The position numbers and the translations under genes were made by a program. Shown here in pieces: positions 37,587 to 59,189 of a DNA stretch of 64,000 nt (positions within the stretch are counted from its first letter, which is position 1; each line of letters begins with the position of its first letter). Under the pieces are notes generated by a model. That model was given only the letters and a program-made list of their open reading frames with translations, ran no database searches and was not told where the DNA came from. This DNA comes from Candidatus Marinamargulisbacteria bacterium (GTDB taxonomy: Bacteria; Margulisbacteria; Marinamargulisbacteria; UBA817), in the NCBI GenBank assembly GCA_023262965.1, contig JALQXX010000001.1, positions 22,581-86,580 on the forward strand, given 5' to 3'.

Positions 37587-37828
37587 TGATTGATGGGGGG
37601 GGCTTAATAATGGTTTGGATGCGTCGGTTAAACATTATTATTTAAATCGTGTATTTTTATTTGCCATCTCTTTTTTAACCATATTTAAGAGGCTTGTTTT
37701 TGTGATACATTTTTGTTGGAAGACAGGCATTGGCACTAACGGTATGATTGGACCGAATGGTTGGTCTACCCGACAATATGGTTGTGTTGATTCTAAAGGT
37801 TTGAGAGACCAATATCGATAATTTGGGT

Positions 37829-38773
37829 ATGAATTGCTATGCATTGAGTAAACGATGGTTGATAATGGGATTGATTGGACTATCTTCATATGCAGTATGG
37901 GCTAATTTTGATGATGTGGATTATGATTTTGCGATATCGGAGCGTCGATATGCTGATGCGTTGCGTATTTTGAATAACAAGCCTGACGATAAGCGAACTA
38001 TTCCAGAAATCAATTTAATCGCCGATTTGACACTTATCATGGATGTTGATGGATTGGCGTGGCCACGTGATACAGTTGCTTTGCGTGAAAGTGATGTGGA
38101 TCCCGAGATACGTAATCAGGTGGCGGGGTATTTAAATGCTGCGTATGATCGATTTTTGAATAACGAAAAATCAACAGCGCGATTGGTGCTGCTGCAGATT
38201 TTATATATTTATCCGGATTATCCAAAGGCCCAACATTTTTTGGCCAAAGCGTTTCAACTGTACCCCGGATCGTATAAAGTGGTTAACCAAGAAGATCGGT
38301 TGCTGAAACGAAGTGATAATTATTTTTATGGGGGTAATTATTTGAAAGCCGTGGAGGACTTGTCGGTTTTGATTGTGTTGAGAAACGATAACCCTATTTT
38401 GCATGAAAAATTGGGGTCCGCGTATTACATGATGAATGAAAAACAAAAGGCCATCGAATCATGGACTACAGCGGTATTTTTTAACTCACAAAATTCAGAA
38501 TTGGAAGAACTGATTGAGGCGACTACAGAGTATTTGGCTAAGGAAAGCCTTCAGCCGAATACCGTTAGTTCTGAAGCCACCACCGTTGTTATGGATGATC
38601 CCCAAGTGATGGGCGTGTTTAAGCAGCAATCCGATGCATTTGATTTGAGGAAAGGACTACAAGAGCAAGGATTAACGGTTCGGATTGATAATGATGCCGA
38701 TGGCAAGTGGGTGGTGTATGTGTCTCAAAAAGAACTTCGCGAAAAAAATGCTGAAAAAAAGGGGGATAAATAA
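37829..38773 (+). CDS. exported TPR-repeat protein with a C-terminal SPOR (septal peptidoglycan-binding) domain
   Basis: N-terminal hydrophobic anchor/signal (RWLIMGLIGLSSYAVWA); TPR-like helical repeats; C-terminal VMGVFKQQSDAFDLRKGLQEQGLTVRI...WVVYV resembles SPOR; the stop lies 3 nt before the next gene. Start could be TTG 37823. Confidence 0.6.
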   Translation: MNCYALSKRWLIMGLIGLSSYAVWANFDDVDYDFAISERRYADALRILNNKPDDKRTIPEINLIADLTLIMDVDGLAWPRDTVALRESDVDPEIRNQVAGYLNAAYDRFLNNEKSTARLVLLQILYIYPDYPKAQHFLAKAFQLYPGSYKVVNQEDRLLKRSDNYFYGGNYLKAVEDLSVLIVLRNDNPILHEKLGSAYYMMNEKQKAIESWTTAVFFNSQNSELEELIEATTEYLAKESLQPNTVSSEATTVVMDDPQVMGVFKQQSDAFDLRKGLQEQGLTVRIDNDADGKWVVYVSQKELREKNAEKKGDK

Positions 38774-38775
38774 TC

Positions 38776-40230
38776 ATGTCGATAGGTAGCTATGGTAATG
38801 TTACAATTGCAGTACTCATTACTGCTATCATTGGTGTTGGCGTCCCGGTATTTTCCAATGTTATTGATCAAACAACCCTGCAGGACACACTTCAATCAAA
38901 AGCGCAACATGTTTTGGATACCATGTATGGCAAGGGGCTTTTTGCTGTGTCCGTTGATGTCACCATGGCGAATGAATCATGGCGTGTAAATTACACAGAT
39001 CGTGCAAATATATCCTTTGAAGAAAAGAAAGATACCTCGTTAGAAAAATACAATGTCTTACCAGGATATGCCGCTATTAAAAATTTATCCCCGAATGAAC
39101 TGGTTCAATTGCCATTTAATGCAACCATTACAAAAATTCCCGGGGCAATTATATCAATTAAATTAACCGTTTTTGCATCAAAGACCGTTCCCAAGCAGCG
39201 TGTGAAGGATGTGGATAAGCTGTTGACCAAATTGCTTGACTTGCAACCGGAACGGGGGGACGGGATTGCGGTTGTGTTTGAAGAATTTCCAGCGATTATA
39301 CAATCCCAAATCCAAGAAACAAAAATTCCATTGGAAGGTAAATTGATGATGGCCCTATTAGCGTTAACATCGGTGGCTCTTCTAGTGTATATTATGCTTA
39401 AAATTAAGCAATTAGGCATTAATAGAGAGTCGGTTAATGCCCAGTTAAAAATGGCGAAAGCCGCTGCAATAGCCAACACAACGGGGGGAATGGCGGATTC
39501 GGTTGGGGATGATAACCCATCGATGGATGCGGTTCATTCCGAGGGGGCATCGGGTTTCTTCAGTTTTATTGGCAACCATCAATCCAATCAATTGCTATCG
39601 ATTCTTAAAAAGAATGCCTTTTCTGTGGAGGAGTTGGCCATGATTGTGTCGTATTTATCGCCAAAAATGGCGCATCAGGTTATGGCATTTTTACCCATTG
39701 ATAAGCAAGTTGAATTAATTAAAATACTGATTAATGAGCAAACCGTTGAGCGGGATCGATTGGTTAAGATTGAAGGCAATATTAAGCATAAATTGGAATG
39801 TATGGTGGGTGGTGCGGATAAATTGATTCGATTGATTGGACGATTTGATGACGAGGCTAAGAAGCAATTTCTACGTGTTGTTGAAGAAAGTGCCGATGTA
39901 TATAATGTGGTTCGTTCGCAAATATTCTTGTTTGATGATATTCAAACATTGAGCAGTGCTGAAATTAAAAAAGTTATTGGGCGTATTAAGTTAGAAGTAT
40001 TGGCAATGTCGCTTATGAAGGGTCCCACAAATGCGATTAAACATCTGAAATCCAATTTGAGTAGCAGCGCTCAAGCCATGGTGTCCCAGTTTGTTGAATT
40101 GAAAAAAGACAGTGTTTCGGATAGTGATATTCACGGTGCACAGCAGCAGATTATTCGGGTGATGCATGACCTGCATGCCAGTGGCCAAATCGATGTTGTG
40201 TCAAAGGTGCTCAAGGGAGTAAAGGGGTAA
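38776..40230 (+). CDS. membrane protein: FliF-like two-TM periplasmic ring region fused to FliG middle and C-terminal domains
   Basis: TM1 near residue 10 and TM2 near residue 190 flank a ~170-aa periplasmic segment. The cytoplasmic residues ~260-484 align along their whole length with FliG_M/FliG_C (FSF...LSIL...AMIVSYLSP...QVMAFLP...QVELIK; VGGADK; VRSQIFLFDDIQTLSSAEIKKVIGRI...LAMSLMKG...QQQIIRVMHDLHASGQIDV). Confidence 0.75.
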   Translation: MSIGSYGNVTIAVLITAIIGVGVPVFSNVIDQTTLQDTLQSKAQHVLDTMYGKGLFAVSVDVTMANESWRVNYTDRANISFEEKKDTSLEKYNVLPGYAAIKNLSPNELVQLPFNATITKIPGAIISIKLTVFASKTVPKQRVKDVDKLLTKLLDLQPERGDGIAVVFEEFPAIIQSQIQETKIPLEGKLMMALLALTSVALLVYIMLKIKQLGINRESVNAQLKMAKAAAIANTTGGMADSVGDDNPSMDAVHSEGASGFFSFIGNHQSNQLLSILKKNAFSVEELAMIVSYLSPKMAHQVMAFLPIDKQVELIKILINEQTVERDRLVKIEGNIKHKLECMVGGADKLIRLIGRFDDEAKKQFLRVVEESADVYNVVRSQIFLFDDIQTLSSAEIKKVIGRIKLEVLAMSLMKGPTNAIKHLKSNLSSSAQAMVSQFVELKKDSVSDSDIHGAQQQIIRVMHDLHASGQIDVVSKVLKGVKG

Positions 40231-40234
40231 CGTC

Positions 40235-41017
40235 ATGCATATAATGATTTTAATGGGATTGGCTCTATCGGTTATAACCTTATTTTATGGGGTGCCGGAT
40301 TTATGGGATAATGCCGGTGTTTATTTGGATGGGCGCTCATTTTTGTTTGTTTTTGGGGGAGCGTTAGGGGCAACCATGATATCCATAACGCCCAAAGAAT
40401 TTTTGTCAATTATAAAAATATTGACGGGCTATATGTTTATAACATCAAAAGCATTAAATAATTACGATGTTGTATATACACTTATCGAAATATCCGAGGT
40501 GGCCAATCGGTCTGGAAAAGAAGCCGTACTGGATATGGGAAAGGCCCTTGGGGATGGCTTTTTGGATCGCGCATTGGTACTAATGGGGGCGGGTTTGGAG
40601 CGATCATTTGTGCAAACTGTTCTCGAAACCGATATTTTTGAAGAAAAAAGTCGTCATGCCCAGATGATTGTATTTATACGAACAATGGGGTCTTCGGGAC
40701 CTATGTTTGGTATGTTGGGAACCGTTATGGGGATTATGAAAGTGTTACAAAACGTTACGGATATTGATTCGGTTGTGTCGGGTATGGGACTGGCGCTGTT
40801 AACCACCATGTATGGATTAATTTTATCGGCGGTTTATTTTATTCCATTGGCCAATCGACTGAAACGCATGAATGATGAAAATGCTCTCACCAAGGAGATT
40901 ATCATGGAGGGCGTTCTGGCCATTATGGATGACAATATTCCATTAATGGTTGAGAAAAAATTGCTGGCGTATCTACAGTCTAAAGACAAGAGAAACAAAA
41001 AAGAAGTTAAAAGGTAG
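40235..41017 (+). CDS. motA: MotA/PomA-type stator proton-channel protein (4 TM)
   Basis: Two N-terminal TMs, a ~100-aa cytoplasmic loop, TM3 with SGPMFGMLGTVMGIM (Pro-containing), TM4, and a ~55-aa C-tail. This is MotA topology, not the 3-TM TolQ/ExbB. Confidence 0.75.
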   Translation: MHIMILMGLALSVITLFYGVPDLWDNAGVYLDGRSFLFVFGGALGATMISITPKEFLSIIKILTGYMFITSKALNNYDVVYTLIEISEVANRSGKEAVLDMGKALGDGFLDRALVLMGAGLERSFVQTVLETDIFEEKSRHAQMIVFIRTMGSSGPMFGMLGTVMGIMKVLQNVTDIDSVVSGMGLALLTTMYGLILSAVYFIPLANRLKRMNDENALTKEIIMEGVLAIMDDNIPLMVEKKLLAYLQSKDKRNKKEVKR

Positions 41018-41022
41018 TAATC

Positions 41023-41685
41023 TTGTTTAAAAATAGAGTTTCTGAAGAAATGTCGGGTTCAGAAAATGAGTTTTCCGTGGTGTTTTCCGATATTATGTCA
41101 TTTATTGCTGGATTATTTATTTTGCTTTTTACAATTGCAAACAGTCAAAATAGTATTTCGGATTATTTATCAGAGATGGGGCTTCGTGTGGGCGGGAAAA
41201 ACGTTGAACAGACACAGAAAACAACATCGGAGGACTTGTTTGTTAGCGAGATAAAAAACTTTATTCAAGATGAGCGATTAAGTCAGTATGCAATTATTTT
41301 GGTGGATGAGCAGCTCATTCGAATTATTTTTAATGACCCTATTTTATTTAAATCGGGAACCGATGTATTATTGCCCGAGTCAACCGCTGTGTTGAATGGG
41401 TTTATTGCGATTGTCAAACGTGTGGATAATCCGTTGTGGATTGAAGGGCATACGGATAATTTTCCGGTAAATCCAGGCGGTTTGTTTCGATCTAATTGGG
41501 ATTTGGCCTATTATCGGGCCTCTGCGGTTGCCAATTATATGATGTCAAAGGGAATTCCGCCCTCACGATTGGCTGTTATTAGTTATGGCGATCAACGGCC
41601 AATGACATCCAATGCAACGGTTAACGGTCGTAAAAAGAATCGGCGAATTGAAATTGGTATTGTTCGTGTCAAACGTACGGACTAA
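41023..41685 (+). CDS. motB: MotB-type stator protein (TM helix with a conserved Asp plus an OmpA-like peptidoglycan-binding domain)
   Basis: FSDIMSFIAGLFILLF matches the MotB plug/TM Asp segment (YADFMTAMMAFF); C-terminal IEGHTDN...RRIEIGIV is an OmpA/MotB domain. Start is TTG 41023 or ATG 41050. Confidence 0.75.
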   Translation: MFKNRVSEEMSGSENEFSVVFSDIMSFIAGLFILLFTIANSQNSISDYLSEMGLRVGGKNVEQTQKTTSEDLFVSEIKNFIQDERLSQYAIILVDEQLIRIIFNDPILFKSGTDVLLPESTAVLNGFIAIVKRVDNPLWIEGHTDNFPVNPGGLFRSNWDLAYYRASAVANYMMSKGIPPSRLAVISYGDQRPMTSNATVNGRKKNRRIEIGIVRVKRTD

Positions 41686-41690
41686 ATGAA

Positions 41691-43535
41691 TTAATTGGCA
41701 ACATTATCTGCTTGTTGAGGCAAGCTGATTGTGAAGGCAGTGCCTTCGGATTCATTGCAACAACATGTAATGGTCCCGTTATGGATGTGAACCAATTCCA
41801 ATACAATCGCCAATTCAATAAACGATACATCAATACGTTCGGCCAATATGGCGAATAACTTCGCTTCGAATGATAACTGAATTAAACGGATTTGATTGGG
41901 GAGGTAAATAACCGTATCGGTTTGAATAATGATCTTGCACGCATGTGTCGTTTGGGTGGCATTGCAATGAATCGTGGTATTTTCTGCTAATAAATGAATG
42001 CTGCTAACCAAATGTTGAATTATTTGACGTATTTTTTGCTTGTCGGCGGATATAAATAGCGGGTCAGGAGTGGTTTGAATATGCAATATATTGTATTTTT
42101 TTCGTAAATTCGGACCAAGGTAGTCCACAACCGTTGTAAATAATGTGGTTAAACAAAACCATTCCATATGTACGGTATAATCACCAGAGTATAAAATAGT
42201 GATATTCAATAAATTATTGATGTGGTTTTTGAGTATAATGGCATTATTTGAGCTGATATTTAGGCAGTCATGTTGTTTGGGGTTTAAGGCGCCATTGTAC
42301 TCTTTTTGCAGGATATTTATGAAACCCATAATCGACGTCAGGGGTGTTTTGAGCTCCTGAATGATCGTTCGTAAAATGGTGTTTTTAATGGTTCGGGATT
42401 GATGCTCTTTTGTAATGTTTCGAATAACCGTAATCAATCCCATTTTTTTAGCGTTTGCATCAATGATGGGGGACATGGTGATGTGATAAAATTGTTTTTT
42501 GTAAGGGCCATCTGGAATGCTGATTTCTCGACACAATGATGTTGATTCGTCCTCGATGCTATGGTTTGAAAATAAAGATACAAAATTCTCATTTTTTATA
42601 TATTTTAAAATGTTCTGCCCTTTTGCGCGATCGGTTGAAAACGTGAGCATGGTTTCAGCCGCACGATTGGCCATCACCAGCTTGTAGTTGAGATCCGTAA
42701 TAATAATCGCGTCGGGAAACTGGGAAAGAATCAATTTGGAGCGATTTTTTTCAAAGATTAATTCATCCGTTTGTTGTTTGGTATTGATGATCATGGTGTT
42801 AATGCCTTGTGCTAAAAAACCCAATTCATCGTTACTTCGTACTTTCATAGTGGGTATCAATTGACCGGATCCAATTTTTTTGGTAACATCTATGATTTCT
42901 GATACCGTTCGGGTGATGTTTTTGAGAAGCCAATTAAATAAGGCGATCAATAGGCTGCTGACAATAAATAATGTAATGACAATGATCAAATACGCCCATT
43001 GCTTTTTGGTATGAATGTCGGTCATATTGATTGTAACCATTAGGGTGAGGTTTTTAATCAGGGGATGATCAAAACGAAATGTGCGAAACCACTGATGCTG
43101 TATATGGTAATCGGATACGAGTGATGCACGTTGTAAGGGTGTTTTGCGATTTGTATCATGAATGGCATACATGTGGGAACCTTCCGTGTAATACAATTGT
43201 GGGATAGCGTTGGGAAATAGCCGCTGCCACATTGGAATGGGCAATGCCATTTTGTGGCCTATTGAGTAAATCCATAATTGGTTGCGGGTGTTTTGTAGAT
43301 GTAATTCGGTGGATTTACTCAAGTTAGTATTGGGAAATTGATAAAAATAATTTTGAATAATGGTTTCGTATAGATGATGGTGGCGTTGAATGGCGTAGGT
43401 TTCTGCGTAACGATACAATTCGGTATCAAAATAATGATCAATGACTTGAATGCACATCACCAAAATAGAGAAAGTCATGAAGAGTGTAATAAATAAAAAT
43501 GGAAGTAAGATACGATGACGAATGGATAGTATCAT
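41691..43535 (-). CDS. sensor histidine-kinase-like membrane protein (2 TM, HAMP, PAS, DHp, CA); probably degenerate (H-box His replaced by Gln)
   Basis: Domain order is recognisable, but the H-box reads IIQELKTPLTSIMGF instead of xHELKTPL, and the G1/G2 boxes are poorly conserved. No response regulator in the window. Confidence 0.6.
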   Translation of the reverse strand: MILSIRHRILLPFLFITLFMTFSILVMCIQVIDHYFDTELYRYAETYAIQRHHHLYETIIQNYFYQFPNTNLSKSTELHLQNTRNQLWIYSIGHKMALPIPMWQRLFPNAIPQLYYTEGSHMYAIHDTNRKTPLQRASLVSDYHIQHQWFRTFRFDHPLIKNLTLMVTINMTDIHTKKQWAYLIIVITLFIVSSLLIALFNWLLKNITRTVSEIIDVTKKIGSGQLIPTMKVRSNDELGFLAQGINTMIINTKQQTDELIFEKNRSKLILSQFPDAIIITDLNYKLVMANRAAETMLTFSTDRAKGQNILKYIKNENFVSLFSNHSIEDESTSLCREISIPDGPYKKQFYHITMSPIIDANAKKMGLITVIRNITKEHQSRTIKNTILRTIIQELKTPLTSIMGFINILQKEYNGALNPKQHDCLNISSNNAIILKNHINNLLNITILYSGDYTVHMEWFCLTTLFTTVVDYLGPNLRKKYNILHIQTTPDPLFISADKQKIRQIIQHLVSSIHLLAENTTIHCNATQTTHACKIIIQTDTVIYLPNQIRLIQLSFEAKLFAILAERIDVSFIELAIVLELVHIHNGTITCCCNESEGTAFTISLPQQADNVAN

Positions 43536-43539
43536 GCGA

Positions 43540-44250
43540 TCAGTTTGTCGTCATGGCGTATAAAATGATGCCGGTTGCAACGGATACGTTTAGAGAATTG
43601 GTGTTGCCAGGCATGGGAATGTGAACGTACTCATCAACCAATGGGGCGAGTCCCGGAGAAATGCCGTTATGTTCCGCGCCACAGATGAGCACGAGTGGCG
43701 TATTGAATGCTGTATGGGGAAGAGCGCTTCCGGTGTTGGATGATGCAGCATATACCCAGTAACCGGCTTTTTTTAATAGTCGTAGTGTGTTTCCGACATT
43801 CACCACTTTTGTGAATGTCATGGATGGCATGGTGCCTGCAGCGGCTTTCTCAACCGCGGGGGTTAGTGGAACGGCACGATCTTTGGGATAAATCAGGTGG
43901 GATACCCCAAAGGCCACTGCCGATCGGCAGATGGCCCCAACGTTATGGGGATCGTTTAGATGATCCAAAACAAGGATGTGGTTAGGGGCTTTAGCGATCA
44001 ATTCGGGTACCGTCATTTGGGGATAATCATGGGTGAGGCATGCGATGCCTTGATGGTCACCGGAAAATCGTTCATTAAATTGCTGATTGCTGAGCCATTG
44101 AATCGCAATTCGCTGGGATTTAGCGGATGCAATCAGTTGATTTAAGGCGTTATCCATCCGCCGCTCTTTAACAAATAGTTTTTCAATCGGGGTATGGGTG
44201 TTTAATAATGCCTGAACAGCGTGTCGGCCTATGACAATACGTGATGACAT
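43540..44250 (-). CDS. rlmB: SpoU/TrmH-family RNA 2'-O-methyltransferase (RlmB-like)
   Basis: SPOUT motifs LVLDHLNDPHNVGAICRSA, LICGAEHNGIS, SLNVSVATGIILY. Confidence 0.8.
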   Translation of the reverse strand: MSSRIVIGRHAVQALLNTHTPIEKLFVKERRMDNALNQLIASAKSQRIAIQWLSNQQFNERFSGDHQGIACLTHDYPQMTVPELIAKAPNHILVLDHLNDPHNVGAICRSAVAFGVSHLIYPKDRAVPLTPAVEKAAAGTMPSMTFTKVVNVGNTLRLLKKAGYWVYAASSNTGSALPHTAFNTPLVLICGAEHNGISPGLAPLVDEYVHIPMPGNTNSLNVSVATGIILYAMTTN

Positions 44251-45500
44251 GCGTCAATAAATCGGGTTAGACCCTCGTCCAATTCGTCTTTAGTGATGAT
44301 AAGTGGTGGCATTAATCGAATAACGTGACCGTGTCGCCCACATGATAAAATTAGTAACTGATTTTGAAGGCATCGATCGCGGATACGTTTGACTATTTCA
44401 GCGTTGGGGGCACCGGTTTCGGTTACCCATTCGATCCCAATCATGAGGCCTTTGGCGCGGATATCCCCAACATACGGATGATTGGCGAATGCCGCTTGCA
44501 AGCGAGCATAGGCGTGTTCTCCTAAGGTAGTAACGGTGGGCAATTGGTCTTGTAAGATACGTAAAGTGGCACAAGCCGCCGCACAGGTCAATGGGTTGCC
44601 ACCATAGGTTCCTCCGTGGGATCCGGTCTTCCATGCGGCCATAATGCTCGGAGTAGACAGGCAGGCCCCTAAGGGCAATCCAGAGGCAATGCCTTTGGCG
44701 GTGGTTAAAATATCGGGTGTAATCGCGTAATGCTGGTAGTAAAACCATTGGCCGGTTCGGCCAATTCCCGACTGAATTTCATCAAATATCAAAAAGACGC
44801 CTGTAGCATTGCACCAATCCCGTAGGATTTGCAATACCGATGCAGGAGCGGGTACGTAGCCACCTTCCCCCAGGAAGGGTTCGATAATAACCGCAGCCGT
44901 TTGGTTGGCGTCAACAGCCGATAGCGCGTTTTTTAAGTAATCACTATACCCAGACTCGGTATGTAATGGCGGATTATTTCGAAAAAAATACGGATATTCC
45001 AAAACGATGCGATGGGGAATGGCCATGGGGTAACGATCCACGTAATTGGGATTGGAGGTGGTTACGGACAGGGATCCCAAGGTCCGCCCATGAAAGCCCC
45101 CGTTAAACGATACAATTTGTTGGGCATTTCGGACATACATGGCGCATTTGAGAGCGGCTTCAATGGCTTCAGTGCCACTTTGCGTGAAAAATACCGAGCT
45201 TAGTTCACCGTTTGTGATACGGCCGAGTTCTTCGGCCAATAGAATATTTTGGTCGTAATAAATGACGCCTGCACACCCATGCAACAATGTCTGCGATTGG
45301 GTGTGGATGGCCGCAACCACCTCGGGGTGGCAATGACCGGTTGAATTAACGGCGATCCCGGCGCCAAAATCCAAATAGGCCTGATCGGCGTAATCGATTA
45401 AATAACAACCCCTTCCGTGCTTGATTTCAAGGGTGGTGGCGTGACCAAGCACGCTTGATAAACAGGTTTTGGATCGATCCACTAAATGCAAATGTGCCAT
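44229..45500 (-). CDS. class-III PLP-dependent aminotransferase (acetylornithine/GABA aminotransferase-like)
   Basis: DEIQSGIGRTGQWF, TTAKGIASGLPLGA (Lys for the PLP Schiff base); start at the internal Met. Confidence 0.8.
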   Translation of the reverse strand: MAHLHLVDRSKTCLSSVLGHATTLEIKHGRGCYLIDYADQAYLDFGAGIAVNSTGHCHPEVVAAIHTQSQTLLHGCAGVIYYDQNILLAEELGRITNGELSSVFFTQSGTEAIEAALKCAMYVRNAQQIVSFNGGFHGRTLGSLSVTTSNPNYVDRYPMAIPHRIVLEYPYFFRNNPPLHTESGYSDYLKNALSAVDANQTAAVIIEPFLGEGGYVPAPASVLQILRDWCNATGVFLIFDEIQSGIGRTGQWFYYQHYAITPDILTTAKGIASGLPLGACLSTPSIMAAWKTGSHGGTYGGNPLTCAAACATLRILQDQLPTVTTLGEHAYARLQAAFANHPYVGDIRAKGLMIGIEWVTETGAPNAEIVKRIRDRCLQNQLLILSCGRHGHVIRLMPPLIITKDELDEGLTRFIDACHHVLS

Positions 45501-45569
45501 TGTATTACCATTAAACCGAATCTCTATTAAAACATCAATCAAATAGTCAAAACACCGGGTCGGGGCCGC

Positions 45570-46460
45570 TTATTCGGATGATGTGGGGGGGGATATGTGA
45601 CGCAAAAATGTTTCGGTTAGGTGCTTGTTGGGGATGTGGGTGTAGCGTTCGGTACTGAGAATAGAGCTGTGTCCCAAAAATTCTTGAACATCACGCATGG
45701 GCGCCCCATTTGAAATCAGGAGATTGGCGCAGGTATGACGGCAGCCGTGCGGTGTAATGACACTATCGGCGGAATGGAATTGATTGGCTTTTTTAACAAT
45801 GCGCTGAATGCTTCGAACGGTTAATGGGGTTCCGGATTTGGCATAAAATACGTAATCATGGCGTGGCAGTGGCCATTCGTTAGCGGCGTGATTCAGGTAA
45901 TCCTGAATGTGGCGCATAGCACGCGGCCCCAGCAAGGCCATACGGGTTTTATTGCCTTTTCCGTGGATGCGGCAGATGGCGTTATGAGAATCGATGGCGG
46001 ATCGGGTGAGGGTGGTGAGCTCGCTGACCCGTATACCAGAGCACAACAGTACCGCAAGAATCGCTTTATTGCGCTTATCCATAACGGTGGATTCGGGATA
46101 ATTATGCAACAGCTCCATAACACGGGATTCTTCAAGATGGGAGGGAATATGACGATGCGGCTTGGGGCGTCGAATCGGTGCCCATGGATTCTTGTCCACA
46201 TGATTGGCCTGTATTAGGAAACGCCAAAACTGACTTAAAGCCACTATCTTACGATAAATGCTGGTGTGTGAATAAGCCCGATTATGTAGGGCCTCGAGGT
46301 ACGCATGGATAACGGTATCGGATACATGGTTCAGGTCCGTTAGGCCGGTTAAGGCAACAAACTGATGCGTATCCCGAATATATGCGTCAACAGTGTGGGA
46401 CGATCGGCGGCATTGAAAGCGCAGATACGCATCAAACTGCTGAATCCGTTGAGAGATCAT
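45570..46460 (-). CDS. tyrosine site-specific recombinase (XerC/XerD-like)
   Basis: C-terminal HGCRHTCANLL...LGHSSILSTERYTHI (R..HxxR..Y); N-terminal SAM-like core-binding domain; start uncertain (overlaps the upstream gene). Confidence 0.8.
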   Translation of the reverse strand: MISQRIQQFDAYLRFQCRRSSHTVDAYIRDTHQFVALTGLTDLNHVSDTVIHAYLEALHNRAYSHTSIYRKIVALSQFWRFLIQANHVDKNPWAPIRRPKPHRHIPSHLEESRVMELLHNYPESTVMDKRNKAILAVLLCSGIRVSELTTLTRSAIDSHNAICRIHGKGNKTRMALLGPRAMRHIQDYLNHAANEWPLPRHDYVFYAKSGTPLTVRSIQRIVKKANQFHSADSVITPHGCRHTCANLLISNGAPMRDVQEFLGHSSILSTERYTHIPNKHLTETFLRHISPPTSSE

Positions 46461-47205
46461 GGGAATTGTTCGTATTGACCGGGTGATCCGGGCTATCAGC
46501 GACCCTGTCGCCAGGATTCGCTGGGGACGTATCGGCAACACCATCGTTGCTGGGTGTTGCCGGAAAATAATCGGCCCGATTGGCATCCGTTAACGGGATC
46601 CAGTCTCCGTTGGATTCCACCCACAGCTCACGTTCGGCGGTTTTTCGGGTGTCAATATGCACATGATTGTTGTCAATGTTGAGCCCCAATCCTTTAATAT
46701 CGGGGAATGTTTCGGCAATTTGGAACAACTCGTAAATGCTCATGTCCGGGACTTGGATGTCGGCCGCAATGCCTTGGGGGTGAACGTCTCGTTTAATACC
46801 GTATTTTTGGGTGCGGCATTCGGGGCAATAGTACCCCGTACAAATGGTGATTTTTTTGCCGATTTGTGCCCGAATCGCTTCGATGACCCCCACCAGACCC
46901 AGGCTAATACGCAATGATTGCGAACAGGAACAGTCTTTTTTTCGGGAATCAAAATCACGTTTGACAAAATGCTCCGATATGCGGTATCGATTCCATTTGG
47001 AATCCGGGCGTGACTTACGGTACGGACGTTTATTGGGTAACTGGGCTGAAAATAGCGTTTCGGAGGCAGCATCTGGTTTCGATACGGATGGCCTGGACTG
47101 ATTTAAGGGCGATTTGTTGATCTGCTGGGATCCCGATCGGCGTGGCCGCCTACGGCGACGTCTGGCCCCGGATTCCTTGGATGACGACGGTTCTTTTTTA
47201 TTCAT
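46432..47205 (-). CDS. M15-family zinc peptidase (DUF882/YcbK-like) with a ~90-aa Arg/Lys/Ser-rich disordered N-terminus and no signal peptide
   Basis: HPQGIAADI (HxxGxAxD) and NHVHIDTR zinc-ligand motifs; N-terminus ARRRRRRPRRSG. Confidence 0.6.
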   Translation of the reverse strand: MNKKEPSSSKESGARRRRRRPRRSGSQQINKSPLNQSRPSVSKPDAASETLFSAQLPNKRPYRKSRPDSKWNRYRISEHFVKRDFDSRKKDCSCSQSLRISLGLVGVIEAIRAQIGKKITICTGYYCPECRTQKYGIKRDVHPQGIAADIQVPDMSIYELFQIAETFPDIKGLGLNIDNNHVHIDTRKTAERELWVESNGDWIPLTDANRADYFPATPSNDGVADTSPANPGDRVADSPDHPVNTNNSHDLSTDSAV

Positions 47206-49601: not shown

Positions 49602-49952
49602 TTAACAAACCGCCGAGTCAAGTGTTTGAAACAGCTGAATGGTTTTTTTGGTAGCGGACACAATTCCGGACATGGCAAACATCTTGGTGATGGTATCTTG
49701 TGAACAAACAATCCGCAATTGACCGGATTTTTCAATGAGTTTTTTGCCGGCAATGGCAATTGTTCCCAATCCCACACTATCCACAAACGATACCTCGTTT
49801 AAATCTAAAACAATTTCTTTAACGTTGGATTCATCGATTAAACGTGAAAACGTTTGGGTTAATCGACGCGATTGATAGTCATCCAACTCGCCTTTTAATG
49901 TAATAATTTTCCAATTTTTATTTTGGGATACATTTATTGCTAAATCAATCAT
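49602..49952 (-). CDS. STAS-domain anti-sigma-factor antagonist (SpoIIAA/RsbV-like)
   Basis: 116 aa; LDLNEVSFVDSVGLGTI (phosphorylatable Ser context). Confidence 0.75.
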   Translation of the reverse strand: MIDLAINVSQNKNWKIITLKGELDDYQSRRLTQTFSRLIDESNVKEIVLDLNEVSFVDSVGLGTIAIAGKKLIEKSGQLRIVCSQDTITKMFAMSGIVSATKKTIQLFQTLDSAVC

Positions 49953-57522: not shown

Positions 57523-58437
57523 TTAGGTGGCGGACTGTATAGATGATACTTCTAAAATCAGTCGGTCCCCGGGACTGACACGCTGTTTGAACGCAATTTT
57601 TCTGGCAGCTATTGTGGTTACAATGCCTTGTGGCGATATGGATAAGACCATGCCTTTCATATCGCAGATTGGAATAAAGGTATCGGATACAATGCGCGCA
57701 TCCATTTGCCACACGCCCGCGGATAGTTCAGAACGATGGTGTAAATCGGTGACGGTGTCTTCCAACATTTGCCACTGAGATACCCCCATCATCACGGGAT
57801 TTCCGGGAAAATGGCCCCGGGTTAAGGGGTGTTGAAGGGAGTACGTTAGCCCGTACAACGCATAGCCCGATTGGTGGGTGTAGCGGGTATCAATAAAGGT
57901 CATGTGCGGATTTTTATACGCAAACGGTGCAATCGCTACCGGATGGGCAAGCGCGTCGGGGTGCATGGGCGGCACCGGATCGGGACGGTTGGGTTCGGAG
58001 GGGGCTTCTTGGGTATAAAAAGCCGTTAAATCCCCACGCGCCTGTGTGTCTCCGCAGGATAAGGTGAATGCGTGTTTGTAAAATCCGTTCCTGTGACTGC
58101 GTTTTTGGGTGGCTCCTTGAATGGGGGTGTCGGCCGTGCAGGGCCCGCCGGTTAATGTGAAATTACTGATGCCAGCAAAATAGGCAAAATAGCCCGGTTT
58201 GATGGCCCCGGAACTACTAATGCAGGCTAAGGCCGCGATTTCGGTGGTTAAAGGCGTGGGGAGTTGGGGGGGGCTATGATTGTCCCAAAATAGGGTTCGT
58301 CCCAAGGTATCGTTGGGCGATATGTGTAGCGAAAAATCACTCGAATCGGGGGATGTAATTGTAACCGTGTCCAATAACATGTTTTGGTAACGATGGGGAA
58401 TGCGGTCACAAATAGCGGTATAATCCAATACGGTCAT
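57523..58437 (-). CDS. tandem hotdog-fold protein, FabZ-like (degenerate N-terminal copy, catalytic-His-containing C-terminal copy)
   Basis: N-half: IPHRYQNMLLDTV and YFAYFAGI (FabZ LPHRFPFLLVDRV / YYFAGI) but no HFPG. C-half: RGHFPGNPVMMGV and AFKQRVSPGDRLILEV. ATGA overlap with the upstream sigma factor. Confidence 0.6.
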   Translation of the reverse strand: MTVLDYTAICDRIPHRYQNMLLDTVTITSPDSSDFSLHISPNDTLGRTLFWDNHSPPQLPTPLTTEIAALACISSSGAIKPGYFAYFAGISNFTLTGGPCTADTPIQGATQKRSHRNGFYKHAFTLSCGDTQARGDLTAFYTQEAPSEPNRPDPVPPMHPDALAHPVAIAPFAYKNPHMTFIDTRYTHQSGYALYGLTYSLQHPLTRGHFPGNPVMMGVSQWQMLEDTVTDLHHRSELSAGVWQMDARIVSDTFIPICDMKGMVLSISPQGIVTTIAARKIAFKQRVSPGDRLILEVSSIQSAT

Positions 58438-59189
58438 GTAGACATGGTAATTTTTTGACGCAGTTTTTTCAAGGCATCATTTAATAATCGGGATACGTGC
58501 ATTTGGGATATGGCTAGCCGATTGGCAATTTCTTTTTGGGTCAGCCCTTCGTAAAAACGCAACTGAATTAATTTTTTTTCGCGTTCGGATAACACGGTCA
58601 ACGCATTATTAATCATCTCGCGCGTCAGCATATCATCATTTTTGTCGCCAGTGCCTAAATTATCCATCAGAGAAAATGTGTCGTTACTGGATTTGCTGGT
58701 TTGTATGGGTTTGTCTAAGGACACTACACGAAACGATTGCCCCGCCTCCATAGACTCCAAAACCGCCTCTTCGGTGAGGTCCAATCCCTTTGCAATTTCC
58801 GGAACGGTGGGCGCACGATCCCACTCTGCGGTTTTTTCTTTAATATAGTGACGTATTTTGGAATACTGCTCTTGTAATTTTCGAGGCAATTTAACAATTA
58901 AGGCTTTATCGCGAATGTAATGACGAATATCACCGATGATGGTGGAACTGGCATAGGTTGAAAAGGCAATATTGCGGGATATGTCGTAGGTTTCCAAGGC
59001 TTTTAGAAGACCCATGTTGCCGGTTTGAATCAAGTCGGGCACATCATCGGTATTGAAGGCTAATTTGCGAGCAATGAAGGTGACTAAGTTCTGATACGCA
59101 ACTAAAATAGACTCTTTGAGTGACTCATTTTTTGTTTCGAGATACTGGCGAACCAGGGCTTCACGTTCATGGGTATTGGCTTGCGTCAT
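58434..59189 (-). CDS. sigma-70-family group-3 alternative sigma factor (SigB/SigF/FliA-like)
   Basis: Region 2 (YASSTIIGDIRHYIRD), region 4 HTH (LTQKEIANRLAISQMHVSRL); 251 aa. Confidence 0.85.
   Translation of the reverse strand: MTQANTHEREALVRQYLETKNESLKESILVAYQNLVTFIARKLAFNTDDVPDLIQTGNMGLLKALETYDISRNIAFSTYASSTIIGDIRHYIRDKALIVKLPRKLQEQYSKIRHYIKEKTAEWDRAPTVPEIAKGLDLTEEAVLESMEAGQSFRVVSLDKPIQTSKSSNDTFSLMDNLGTGDKNDDMLTREMINNALTVLSEREKKLIQLRFYEGLTQKEIANRLAISQMHVSRLLNDALKKLRQKITMST

What the first reader, a model, noticed from the sequence alone, without database searches (positions are those of the whole stretch)
41691..43535. Histidine-kinase-like protein with Gln in place of the phospho-acceptor His and degenerate ATP-lid boxes, convergent on the stator operon
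The architecture is intact (2 TM, large periplasmic loop, HAMP, PAS, DHp, CA). However, the H-box reads IIQELKTPL rather than xHELKTPL, and the N/G1/G2 boxes look eroded (for example ELAIVLELVHIHNG in place of GLGLAIVK..HGG). No response regulator is adjacent. This could be a pseudo-kinase acting as a sensor or scaffold, possibly functionally linked to the neighbouring motor module.
Basis: seen in the sequence. Interest (0 to 1): 0.55.

Follow-up and report, generated by a model that had tools for sequence, protein, structure and literature searches.

The report
Catalytically dead WalK-like sensor kinase
One marine Marinamargulisbacteria-type population carries a full-length membrane sensor kinase that has lost its phosphorylatable histidine and all its ATP-binding motifs while every known orthologue keeps them, so it is a recently arisen "pseudokinase" of a known kind and shows no link to the motor genes next door.

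Summary
ORF 41691-43535(-) encodes a 614-aa TM/periplasmic/TM/HAMP/PAS/DHp/CA protein. Profile and PDB alignments put Gln393 (CAG) at the phospho-acceptor His. The N-box Asn/Lys and the G1 and G2 glycines are gone, and HATPase_c scores below Pfam's cutoff. Four independent assemblies give the same sequence, so it is not an error.

All 15 aligned full-length or near-full-length orthologues are Marinamargulisbacteria-type proteins at 34-39% identity, and five checked loci share the M15-Xer-aminotransferase-SpoU-HK synteny. They keep His, the N-box and mostly G1. The "ELAIV" G2 variant is a family trait, not erosion.

The window protein lost 46 of 132 family-invariant positions. Replacements in CA are as radical as random mutation (BLOSUM -0.52, against +0.54 in orthologues). 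Those in HAMP/PAS/DHp stay conservative, the ORF is intact, and the ExxT phosphatase motif is retained. This favours a maintained pseudokinase (a response-regulator phosphatase/sink or partner-kinase modulator) over pure decay, but only one species-level lineage shows the state.

The stator link is not supported. Orthologues have other neighbours, and the same FliG-like/MotAB cassette occurs elsewhere without a kinase. This is a new member of a known kind, of modest interest.

The parts
41691..43535 (-). Full ORF, 614 aa: a lineage-specific, catalytically degenerate orthologue of a Marinamargulisbacteria orphan HAMP-PAS sensor histidine kinase. The true start is the ATG at 43535. Public records start 19 codons later.
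   Evidence: The N-terminus MILSIRHRILLPFLFIT is conserved in orthologues.
43440..43511 (-). TM1 (residues about 9-32)
   Evidence: Hydrophobic stretch ILLPFLFITLFMTFSILVMCIQVI, lying within the long helix 2-66 of the AF2 model.
42996..43439 (-). Periplasmic sensor domain (residues 33-180): a helix followed by a beta-rich alpha/beta domain, with no Pfam match. All three nonsynonymous population variants (Y65H, Q81K, Y90D) lie here.
42933..42995 (-). TM2 (residues 181-201)
42783..42932 (-). HAMP domain (residues 202-251). It has lost 9 of 20 family-invariant positions, but the replacements are conservative.
   Evidence: PF00672, 29.8 bits.
42402..42743 (-). PAS domain (residues 265-378), the best preserved domain: 42 of 56 invariant positions kept.
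   Evidence: PF00989, 32.7 bits.
42186..42386 (-). DHp / HisKA domain (residues 384-450). It shows the highest relative-rate acceleration (5.2x against a neighbour baseline of 1.6x).
   Evidence: PF00512, 36.4 bits.
42333..42371 (-). H-box RTIIQELKTPLTS. Gln393 (CAG, 42357-42359) replaces the phospho-acceptor His (CAC/CAT in orthologues). The E-x-x-T phosphatase motif (E394, T397) and P398 are retained.
   Evidence: Motif role from PMC3510030 and PMC7005713.
41712..42185 (-). CA (HATPase_c-like) domain, residues 451-608. The fold is retained and the catalytic motifs are lost. Pfam score is 21.3 against a gathering score of 26.4.
   Evidence: (pLDDT about 80-90).
41976..42026 (-). Degenerate N-box QIIQHLVSSIHLLAENT (N508H, N512S, N514H, K515L, T517A, G520T relative to orthologues).
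41901..41930 (-). Degenerate G1 box IIQTDTVIYL (orthologues have IIKDSGxGL; both glycines lost).
41796..41840 (-). Degenerate G2 box/lid ERIDVSFIELAIVLE (orthologues have DGLGLELAIVKE). 'ELAIV' is a family trait, and the two remaining glycines are lost only here.
41686..41690 (.). A 5-bp spacer between the convergent stop codons of MotB (41683-41685) and the HK (41691-41693). It marks the synteny breakpoint relative to orthologous loci, and no terminator-like element was found there.

Best explanation
This is the orthologue, in one marine Marinamargulisbacteria-type species, of a conserved orphan membrane sensor kinase. That kinase has a WalK/VicK-like architecture (TM, periplasmic domain, TM, HAMP, PAS, DHp, CA) and is the last gene of a conserved M15 peptidase/Xer/aminotransferase/SpoU operon.

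Shown here:
- The phospho-acceptor His became Gln through one transversion (CAC/CAT to CAG).
- The N-box Asn and Lys and the G1 and G2 glycines were all replaced.

Inferred with high confidence: the protein can neither bind Mg-ATP in the normal way nor autophosphorylate.

Also shown:
- The ORF is intact.
- The CA hydrophobic core and predicted fold are retained.
- Replacements in HAMP, PAS and DHp remain conservative.
- The DHp keeps the E-x-x-T-P motif used for HisKA phosphatase activity, and helix alpha-1 after the acceptor site is mostly unchanged.

Inferred, moderate confidence: the protein is still maintained as a signal-responsive, non-phosphorylatable transmitter, that is, a histidine pseudokinase.

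Inferred, low confidence on the specific mode: its most likely action is to bind a response regulator, acting as a (weakened) phosphatase or as a sink, or to modulate a partner kinase through DHp contacts, as RetS, DivL and the ChrS pseudokinase variant do.

It is not functionally tied to the adjacent FliG-like/MotAB cassette.
For: Loss of catalytic residues:
- Gln at the acceptor column in HMMER alignments to four solved HKs and in the MAFFT family alignment.
- N, G1 and G2 substitutions.
- HATPase_c below Pfam's cutoff, whereas all orthologues have a precomputed PF02518 hit.

Not an artefact: the sequence is identical in four independent assemblies, with the same SpoU-HK-MotB junction.

Orthology: E-values down to 5e-121, full-length alignment, and conserved upstream synteny in L001, L003, L088, L089 and L090.

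Lineage-specific change:
- All 15 aligned orthologues and the three species representatives keep His.
- Only 1 of 120 homologues lacks His.
- 46 of 132 invariant positions are lost, against roughly 0-10% in other members.
- The cytoplasmic branch-length ratio is 2.6, against a neighbour-gene median of 1.61.

Domain-specific relaxation:
- CA mismatches average BLOSUM62 -0.52, close to the random expectation of -0.37.
- Pooled orthologues average +0.54 (p=4.8e-6), and the protein's own HAMP/PAS/DHp average +0.34 (p=5.5e-4).

Maintenance:
- The ORF is open while the other frames carry 30-40 stops, and 4.6% of point substitutions would create a stop.
- The CA core is 43/48 hydrophobic.
- The AF2 CA domain has pLDDT of about 80-90 with full Bergerat topology.
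- Foldseek finds WalK/VicK at full length, and the DHp-CA core fits RetS (TM 0.82) and DivL (0.74).

Plausibility of the mechanism:
- The T/N at His+4 is essential for HisKA phosphatase activity, and the His only enhances it in CrdS and EnvZ (PMC3510030).
- A pseudokinase ChrS variant is functional and heterodimerises with HrrS (PMC9491836).
- RetS modulates GacS by three routes (PMC5992135).
Against: - The dead state is seen in a single species-level population (>99.7% nt identity among four assemblies). There is no evidence that it has been conserved over evolutionary time, unlike DivL or PsmA.
- Substitution is accelerated in HAMP and DHp as well, and 35% of family-invariant positions are lost overall, which also fits general relaxation.
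- The open-ORF argument is only moderately strong. With the most permissive neighbour baseline (2.22), the chance of no stop under neutrality is about 0.1, not about 0.004 (my inference).
- Within-population polymorphism (5 sites) cannot measure selection.
- Phosphatase activity in HK853/EnvZ is stimulated by nucleotide bound to the CA lid, and PleC H610A loses phosphatase activity (PMC7005713, PMC3510030). A Gln/no-ATP protein may therefore be a poor phosphatase.
- No partner response regulator or kinase is known, and the rest of the genome could not be searched.
- The AF2 confidence partly reflects the orthologue alignment.
Confidence: 0.55

Rival explanations
1. Non-functional relic: the kinase lost its role in this lineage, perhaps with the rearrangement at its 3' end or the loss of its partner. 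The gene is drifting towards a pseudogene and has simply not yet acquired a stop or frameshift.
For: - Only one species-level lineage has the state.
- Acceleration is seen in all cytoplasmic domains, and 46 of 132 invariant positions are lost.
- CA replacements are as radical as random mutation.
- Gene GC is 37% against about 49% for the upstream operon, a larger drop than in orthologous loci.
- A synteny breakpoint lies exactly at the stop codon, and the C-terminal tail is about 30 aa shorter than in orthologues.
Against: - The 614-codon ORF is intact despite roughly 30-90 excess replacements, and 4.6% of substitutions would give stops.
- There are no indels that disrupt domains.
- HAMP/PAS/DHp replacements are significantly more conservative than those in CA and than the random expectation, so constraint differs between domains instead of being absent.
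- The CA hydrophobic core is 90% kept.
- The ExxTP motif is intact.
- The start lies 4 bp after the SpoU stop in a conserved operon, so the gene is probably still transcribed.
Confidence: 0.3
2. It is still a phospho-signalling protein through an unconventional route. It would be phosphorylated in trans by a partner kinase's CA domain on another His: His438 is a new His at a family-invariant Leu position in DHp helix 2, roughly level with residue 393, and His422 is also new. Alternatively, it has atypical nucleotide binding.
For: - L438H and a His at 422 are lineage-specific gains in the DHp.
- The whole family already has a non-canonical G2, and some intact orthologues have an atypical G1.
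- RetS accepts phosphoryl groups from GacS (PMC5992135).
Against: - There is no precedent in the evidence gathered here for a helix-2 acceptor in HisKA proteins.
- Residue 438 sits at a predicted core (a/d) position (my inference from the heptad pattern).
- The N-box Asn and Lys and the G1 and G2 glycines are all lost, which makes any nucleotide binding by its own CA domain unlikely.
- No partner kinase lies in the window.
Confidence: 0.04
3. One reading: the pseudokinase is a sensor or scaffold that controls the adjacent FliG-like/MotA/MotB motor module.
For: The genes are convergent with only 5 bp between their stops, and this junction is reproduced in three other assemblies of the same population.
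Against: - The adjacency is absent from all five orthologous loci examined.
- The same four-gene cassette in L091, L092 and L093 has no kinase-like neighbour.
- Convergent genes are not co-transcribed.
- The HK belongs to the upstream SpoU operon in every lineage.
Confidence: 0.05
4. Sequencing, assembly or register artefact: the His is really present, or the contig is chimeric at the GC step.
For: - His to Gln is a single third-position change.
- GC jumps from 40% to 49% at the SpoU/HK boundary.
Against: - Four independent assemblies from three sources have CAG and identical boxes.
- Multiple independent motifs are lost, not a single base.
- SpoU-HK adjacency is conserved in all orthologous loci.
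- HMMER and MAFFT agree on the register.
Confidence: 0.01

Closest known systems
WalK / VicK (YycG) cell-wall-metabolism sensor histidine kinases (PDB 4i5s, 9a5d; NCBIfam NF033092)
   Same: Same overall architecture: two TM segments around an extracytoplasmic domain, then HAMP, PAS, HisKA DHp and a CA domain. It is the best sequence and fold match. The H-box context xELKTPLTS is nearly identical.
   Different: The score of 140.8 bits is far below the WalK equivalog cutoff of 725, so it is not WalK. There is no adjacent WalR-type regulator and no YycHI genes. The acceptor His and the ATP-binding motifs are missing. The phylum is different.
Its own orthologue group: the Marinamargulisbacteria orphan HAMP-PAS histidine kinases (P0002-P0019; e.g. 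DID73_02530 of SCGC AG-343-K17)
   Same: Full-length homology (34-39% identity in the full-length alignment), the same domain order, the same upstream operon (M15 peptidase, Xer, class-III aminotransferase, SpoU), and the same non-canonical 'ELAIV' G2.
   Different: All orthologues keep THEL(R/K)TPLT, the N-box NLILNANK and mostly DxGxG. The window protein alone has Gln393, no N-box Asn/Lys and no G1/G2 glycines. It also has a shorter C-terminal tail, a different downstream neighbourhood and a 1.6-3x faster branch.
DivL of Caulobacter crescentus (histidine pseudokinase, PDB 4q20; PMC4211667)
   Same: An HK-like protein with PAS, DHp and CA whose acceptor His is replaced, so it signals without autophosphorylation. 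The DHp-CA core superposes (TM 0.74), and phmmer gives E=1.7e-4.
   Different: DivL has Tyr, not Gln, and multiple PAS domains. It is conserved across Alphaproteobacteria and has a defined partner logic (DivK~P binding, CckA control). Here the dead state is confined to one species and no partner is known.
PsmA of Streptomyces (hybrid histidine pseudokinase; PMC12963549)
   Same: It lacks the catalytic His, has PAS domains essential for function, and shows no autokinase activity.
   Different: PsmA also lacks the D/ExxT/N phosphatase motif, is a hybrid HK, and is conserved throughout Streptomycetaceae. The window protein keeps ExxT and is a lineage-specific derivative of active kinases.
RetS (P. 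aeruginosa) and the laboratory-evolved ChrS_CA-fs pseudokinase (PMC5992135, PMC9491836)
   Same: These are sensor kinases that act without their own autokinase activity, by contacting a partner kinase or regulator through the DHp. ChrS_CA-fs shows that CA inactivation in a single lineage can be adaptive and can differ from gene deletion. The DHp-CA core fits RetS best (TM 0.82).
   Different: RetS retains its His, has a 7TMR-DISMED2 sensor and two receiver domains. ChrS lost its CA by frameshift and has a known paralogous partner. None of these features or partners is shown here.

Membership tests
Functional HisKA-type sensor histidine kinase | HisKA (DHp) domain detectable above the curated threshold | tested here: met
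   PF00512 scores 36.4 bits against a cutoff of 26.9, residues 384-445.
Functional HisKA-type sensor histidine kinase | Phospho-acceptor His in the H-box (H-E/D-x-x-T/N-P) | tested here: not met
   Gln393 aligns to the His of VicK, KdpD, 7z8n and 4u7n, and of all family members. The codon is CAG.
Functional HisKA-type sensor histidine kinase | HATPase_c domain above the curated threshold, with N-box Asn, G1 DxGxG and G2 glycines | tested here: not met
   PF02518 scores 21.3 bits, below the cutoff of 26.4. Substitutions are N512S, N508H, N514H and K515L. G1 is 'DTVIY' and G2 is 'DVSFIEL'.
Functional HisKA-type sensor histidine kinase | Autophosphorylation with ATP and phosphotransfer to a cognate REC protein | not testable with these tools
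   This needs biochemistry. No REC domain is encoded anywhere in the 64-kb window.
WalK/VicK equivalog (NCBIfam NF033092 / NF033093) | Whole-protein score above the NCBIfam equivalog cutoff | tested here: not met
   140.8 bits against 725 (WalK) and 72.7 against 680 (VicK).
Marinamargulisbacteria orphan HAMP-PAS HK orthologue group | Full-length homology with the same domain order | tested here: met
   E-values of 5e-121 to 7e-74, with 95-100% coverage for the full-length members; alignments A1 and A2.
Marinamargulisbacteria orphan HAMP-PAS HK orthologue group | Conserved position as the last gene after M15 peptidase, Xer, Aminotran_3 and SpoU | tested here: met
   Window 43540-47205, and L001, L003, L088, L089 and L090.
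Histidine pseudokinase (DivL / PsmA-type class) | HK-like DHp-CA architecture lacking the phosphorylatable His | tested here: met
Histidine pseudokinase (DivL / PsmA-type class) | Demonstrated absence of autokinase activity | not testable with these tools
   Only inferred, from the loss of His and of the N, G1 and G2 motifs.
Histidine pseudokinase (DivL / PsmA-type class) | Degenerate state conserved across species, as evidence of selection for the non-catalytic role | tested here: not met
   The state appears only in one population (>99.7% nt identity). Searches of 5.8 billion proteins and 185,579 species genomes found no closer relative and no other Gln-bearing member.
Histidine pseudokinase (DivL / PsmA-type class) | Evidence that the non-catalytic parts remain under purifying selection | tested here: inconclusive
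   In favour: an intact ORF, conservative replacements in HAMP/PAS/DHp against radical ones in CA (p=5.5e-4), and a CA core 90% hydrophobic. Against: these domains are also accelerated, and population dN/dS is uninformative.
HisKA transmitter phosphatase | E/D-x-x-T/N motif next to the acceptor position | tested here: met
   Q393-E394-L-K-T397-P398. The motif requirement is from PMC3510030, PMC7005713 and PMC12963549.
HisKA transmitter phosphatase | Acceptor His and a nucleotide-bound CA lid, which enhance phosphatase activity (and are required in some HKs, e.g. PleC) | tested here: not met
   His is replaced by Gln and the ATP-lid motifs are lost. Literature: PMC3510030, PMC7005713.

The most novel reading that the evidence does not exclude
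The protein is a maintained, newly evolved pseudokinase, a natural snapshot of a bifunctional sensor kinase converted into a non-phosphorylatable signalling module: a dedicated phosphatase/sink or a DivL/RetS-like modulator. It would have remodelled HAMP and DHp, including a new His438 at bundle level with the former acceptor site. Catalytically intact orthologues in sister lineages would serve as ready-made comparators for how such transitions rewire a two-component pathway.
Probability: 0.2. Interest if true: 0.5.

Novelty: new member of a known kind. Interest (0 to 1): 0.3.

Why it matters
Histidine pseudokinases (DivL, PsmA, RetS-like proteins) are known mostly as old, conserved families, so the step from active kinase to pseudokinase is rarely seen. 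Here the same gene, in the same operon, is catalytically intact in every sister lineage and dead in one. The CA domain alone shows random-like replacement, while the sensor, HAMP, PAS and DHp domains stay constrained. If the protein is indeed maintained, it offers matched active and dead orthologues for asking what a transmitter module does once phosphoryl chemistry is gone. For genome annotation, it is a caution that 'sensor histidine kinase VicK' labels (as in the JGI record) can hide dead enzymes. The organism is uncultured and the state is confined to one species, so the practical impact is modest.

Tried and rejected
1. Within-population dN/dS from four assemblies: only 5 variable sites in 1845 nt (2 synonymous, 3 nonsynonymous, all before residue 250), which is uninformative.
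2. Looking up the window's own contig by exact protein: P0001 is not on record, so the remaining roughly 28 kb of the 92-kb contig and the rest of the genome could not be searched for REC partners.
3. Scan of species-representative genomes for closer relatives or other Gln-bearing members: the window genome is not a representative, and only three Marinamargulisbacteria hits were found, all with His.
4. Hypothesis that loss of the downstream HK2/terpene-synthase-like/REC cassette triggered the degeneration: rejected, because L088 lacks the cassette and its HK (P0012) is intact.
5. Hypothesis of a functional link to the stator cassette: rejected on comparative context.
6. Chimeric contig at the GC step: rejected, because SpoU-HK adjacency is conserved everywhere and the HK-MotB junction recurs in three assemblies.
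7. Register error at the H-box: rejected.
8. Promoter/terminator scan of 41000-44400: counts are no higher than in shuffles, and nothing lies at the convergent junction.
9. Simple per-domain identity ratios did not single out CA, because CA is also the fastest-evolving cytoplasmic domain in the orthologues. The replacement-quality test was needed to show CA-specific relaxation.
10. The Foldseek resemblance of the DHp-CA core to RetS and DivL is treated as a lead only, because many canonical HKs score similarly.
Full report
**Observation.** The ORF at 41691-43535 on the minus strand is real and encodes 614 aa.
- Pfam finds HAMP (202-251), PAS (268-373) and HisKA (384-445; 36.4 bits, above the 26.9 cutoff).
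- It also finds a full-length but sub-threshold HATPase_c match (498-608; 21.3 bits against 26.4).
- NCBIfam's best models are WalK, PnpS, PhoR and VicK, all far below their equivalog cutoffs.
- Two hydrophobic segments (about 9-32 and 181-201) flank a periplasmic domain of about 148 aa. AlphaFold models this domain as a long helix followed by a beta-rich alpha/beta domain.
- The ATG at 43535 is the true start, because the first 19 residues (MILSIRHRILLPFLFIT...) are conserved in orthologues. Public records of this protein (P0001, 595 aa) start too late.

**Catalytic residues.** phmmer alignments against solved kinases (VicK 4i5s, 7z8n, KdpD 6lgq, 4u7n) all place 'iiQELKTPLT' on 'xxHE(L/I)RTPLT'. 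MAFFT with 21 homologues gives the same column. Gln393 (CAG, window 42357-42359) therefore replaces the phospho-acceptor His, which is CAC or CAT in the orthologues, a single transversion.
- The N-box reads QHLVSSIHLL where orthologues have ENLILNANKxT (N508H, N512S, N514H, K515L).
- G1 reads QTDTVIY where orthologues have KDSGxG.
- The G2/lid reads DVSFIEL where orthologues have DGLGLEL.
It is a family trait, and the lineage-specific loss is in the residues before it.
- Among the 120 homologues retrieved, this is the only protein without His at the acceptor position.

**Not an artefact.** The 90%-identity cluster holds four sequences from independent assemblies: NCBI, JGI 3300061609, and ENA ERZ27267617 and ERZ27267624. 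All four have the same H-box and degenerate boxes. At the DNA level they differ from the window at only 5 of 1845 positions, and none of these lies in DHp or CA. The SpoU-HK-MotB junction is reproduced in L005, L006 and L007. The GC step at about 44 kb is therefore not a chimera.

**What it is related to.** The closest relatives (P0002-P0019; 34-39% identity in the full-length alignment; E down to 5e-121) come from marine metagenomes and single-cell genomes, one of them labelled Candidatus Marinamargulisbacteria SCGC AG-343-K17.
- In five loci from different lineages (L001, L003, L088, L089, L090) the kinase is the last gene of the same array: M15 peptidase, Xer-type recombinase, class-III aminotransferase, SpoU methyltransferase, HK. 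This matches window 43540-47205, so these are true orthologues.
- None has a response regulator in the operon, so the family is an orphan kinase.
- Downstream, the orthologues have either a convergent second kinase with a terpene-synthase-like gene and a REC protein (L001, L003, L089, L090), or RNase H-hisD-aroA directly (L088).
- L088 lacks that cassette and its kinase is still intact. Loss of the cassette therefore does not explain the degeneration.
- In the window lineage the synteny breaks exactly at the HK stop codon. MotB's stop lies 5 bp away on the other strand, and the HK lacks the C-terminal tail of about 30 residues that orthologues carry.

**Evolutionary pattern.** The window protein has lost 46 of 132 positions that are invariant in all 15 orthologues: HAMP 9/20, PAS 14/56, DHp 9/27 (including H393), CA 11/23. 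Other members lose roughly 0-10% in a leave-one-out control.
- A three-taxon relative-rate calculation used L001 and L003 as references. For nine syntenic neighbour genes, the window-branch to reference-branch ratio has a median of 1.61 (range 1.03-2.22).
- The same ratio is 2.60 for the cytoplasmic part of the HK: DHp 5.2, HAMP 4.2, PAS 2.5, CA 2.1. CA is also the fastest-evolving domain in the orthologues, which damps its ratio.
- This corresponds to about 90 excess replacements against the median baseline, or about 30 against the most permissive baseline (my calculation from the values).
- 4.6% of point substitutions in this gene would create a stop codon, and the other frames carry 30-40 stops. 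If the excess were neutral, the ORF would stay open with a probability of about 0.004 to 0.1. This is my rough inference, and it ignores indels.
- More telling is the quality of the replacements at columns with at least 60% consensus. The window's 62 of 101 CA mismatches average BLOSUM62 -0.52, no better than random nonsynonymous point mutations (-0.37).
- CA mismatches pooled over the intact orthologues average +0.54 (Mann-Whitney p=4.8e-6). The window's own HAMP, PAS and DHp mismatches average +0.34 (p=5.5e-4).
- The CA hydrophobic core is nonetheless kept (43 of 48 positions). AlphaFold predicts a complete Bergerat-type alpha/beta sandwich with pLDDT of about 80-90, though this is helped by the orthologue alignment.
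- The picture is domain-specific relaxation of the catalytic surface of CA, with weaker but persisting constraint on the signalling domains.

**Mechanism.** Loss of the acceptor His, the Mg-binding Asn, the N-box Lys and all lid glycines makes autophosphorylation and normal ATP binding very unlikely. This is inferred with high confidence from established HK biochemistry.
- The DHp keeps Q-E-L-K-T-P. In HisKA kinases the Thr/Asn four residues after the His is the residue required for phosphatase activity.
- The His itself only enhances that activity in CrdS and EnvZ: the CrdA~P half-life is 2.6 min with H371A, under 1 min with wild type and 53.5 min without kinase. PleC H610A, however, loses both activities (PMC3510030).
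- Nucleotide bound to the CA lid stimulates phosphatase activity in HK853 and EnvZ (PMC7005713). Any phosphatase activity here would therefore probably be weak.
- Helix alpha-1 after the acceptor site (TSIMGFINIL against TSIIGFLNIL) is nearly unchanged, which is compatible with continued docking of the ancestral response regulator (inference).
- Precedents for kinase-independent action include DivL (PMC4211667), PsmA (PMC12963549) and RetS acting on GacS by three routes (PMC5992135). Another is a laboratory-evolved ChrS pseudokinase that behaves differently from a deletion and heterodimerises with its paralogue (PMC9491836).
- By Foldseek the full model matches WalK and VicK, and the DHp-CA core superposes best on RetS (TM 0.82) and also on DivL (0.74). 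This is a lead, not a test.
- I therefore favour a maintained pseudokinase that binds a response regulator (as a phosphatase or sink) or modulates a partner kinase. My estimates are about 0.55 that it is maintained at all, and lower for any specific mode.
- The main rival (about 0.3) is a relic in early decay. It is supported by the restriction to one species-level population, by the acceleration in HAMP and DHp, and by a larger GC deficit relative to the operon than in orthologous loci (37% against about 49%).

**The motor link.** The neighbouring genes are a four-gene cassette: a TPR protein, a membrane-anchored FliG-like protein, MotA, and MotB/OmpA.
- The FliG-like protein has only three other relatives among 5.8 billion proteins.
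- In all three, the same cassette sits in unrelated, non-flagellar neighbourhoods with no kinase beside it.
- Together with the different neighbours of the HK orthologues, this makes the adjacency incidental. The cassette itself deserves separate attention.

**Partner search within reach.** Pfam annotation of the non-ribosomal ORFs found no REC domain and no other kinase in the 64-kb window. A six-frame phmmer scan with 12 REC-containing seeds also found none.

**Verdict.** The link to the stator is not supported. This is a new, lineage-specific member of the known class of histidine pseudokinases. It does not meet the criterion of a conserved degenerate state that marks established pseudokinase families, so whether it is functional or decaying remains open. 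Interest is modest (0.3). Its main value is as a matched dead/active orthologue pair and as an annotation caveat.

Noticed in passing
window 37823-41685 (+); also L091 8044-11889, L092 1574-5399, L093 7709-11876: A stand-alone four-gene cassette: a TPR protein (316 aa), a membrane-anchored FliG-like protein (484 aa; N-terminal part with no Pfam match, hydrophobic segments near residues 9-25 and 191-214, then FliG_M and FliG_C), MotA (260 aa) and MotB/OmpA (220 aa). The FliG-like protein has only three other relatives among 5.8 billion proteins. The cassette recurs intact in non-flagellar contexts with no other flagellar genes within 9 kb. It may be a minimal stator-plus-FliG machine of unknown role.
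   Followed up: partly
window about 43540-44250 boundary; whole-window profile: A sharp GC step: 1-44 kb is about 40% GC (ribosomal supercluster, motor cassette, HK at 37%), and 44-64 kb is about 46-52% GC. It falls at the SpoU/HK gene boundary, although that adjacency is conserved in all orthologous loci and in three other assemblies. In L001 and L003 the HK is also the lowest-GC gene of its operon, but by only about 5 points against about 11 here.
   Followed up: partly
alignments A1/A2; P0002-P0019: The whole Marinamargulisbacteria HK family has a non-canonical G2 box (xGLGLELAIV, with Glu in place of the third Gly). Some otherwise intact members have an atypical G1 (P0004 and P0006 'KDTSxGM', P0011 'KNSGVG' with N-box 'NLILYVNK'). 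The family's ATP lid may therefore be unusual even in the His-bearing members.
   Followed up: no
L001 12344-16957, L090 10100-14836, L003 12221-21935, L089 10691-14525: A variable cassette lies convergent on the HK orthologues: a second HisKA/HATPase_c kinase (435-459 aa), a large protein with a weak Terpene_syn_C_2 hit (584-708 aa) and a REC-domain protein (332-342 aa) with an unassigned output region. It is absent from L088 and from the window lineage.
   Followed up: partly
window 43479-43535 (-): Public gene calls for this protein (P0001 and P0121-P0123, 595 aa) start at Met20. They omit 19 residues that are conserved in the orthologues and that form the start of TM1. The JGI record names the protein 'two-component system sensor histidine kinase VicK' despite the missing His.
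   Followed up: yes
window 43266-43343 (-), HK residues 65, 81, 90: All three nonsynonymous differences among the four population variants (Y65H, Q81K, Y90D) fall in the periplasmic sensor domain. DHp and CA are invariant, and the two remaining differences are synonymous (codon 55 in the periplasmic domain and codon 246 in HAMP). The numbers are too small to test.
   Followed up: partly
window 42222-42224 and 42270-42272 (-), HK residues 438 and 422: Two lineage-specific histidines have appeared in DHp helix 2. L438H is at a position that is Leu in every orthologue and lies roughly level with residue 393 in the four-helix bundle. The other is a His at 422, at the start of helix 2. Their significance is unknown.
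   Followed up: no
window 49602-49952 (-), 57523-59189 (-): A STAS-domain protein (of anti-sigma-antagonist type) is conserved in the same syntenic block in all lineages. A group-3-like sigma-70 family factor (251 aa) is followed by a 304-aa ORF with no Pfam match. These are possible partner-switching components and were not examined further.
   Followed up: no
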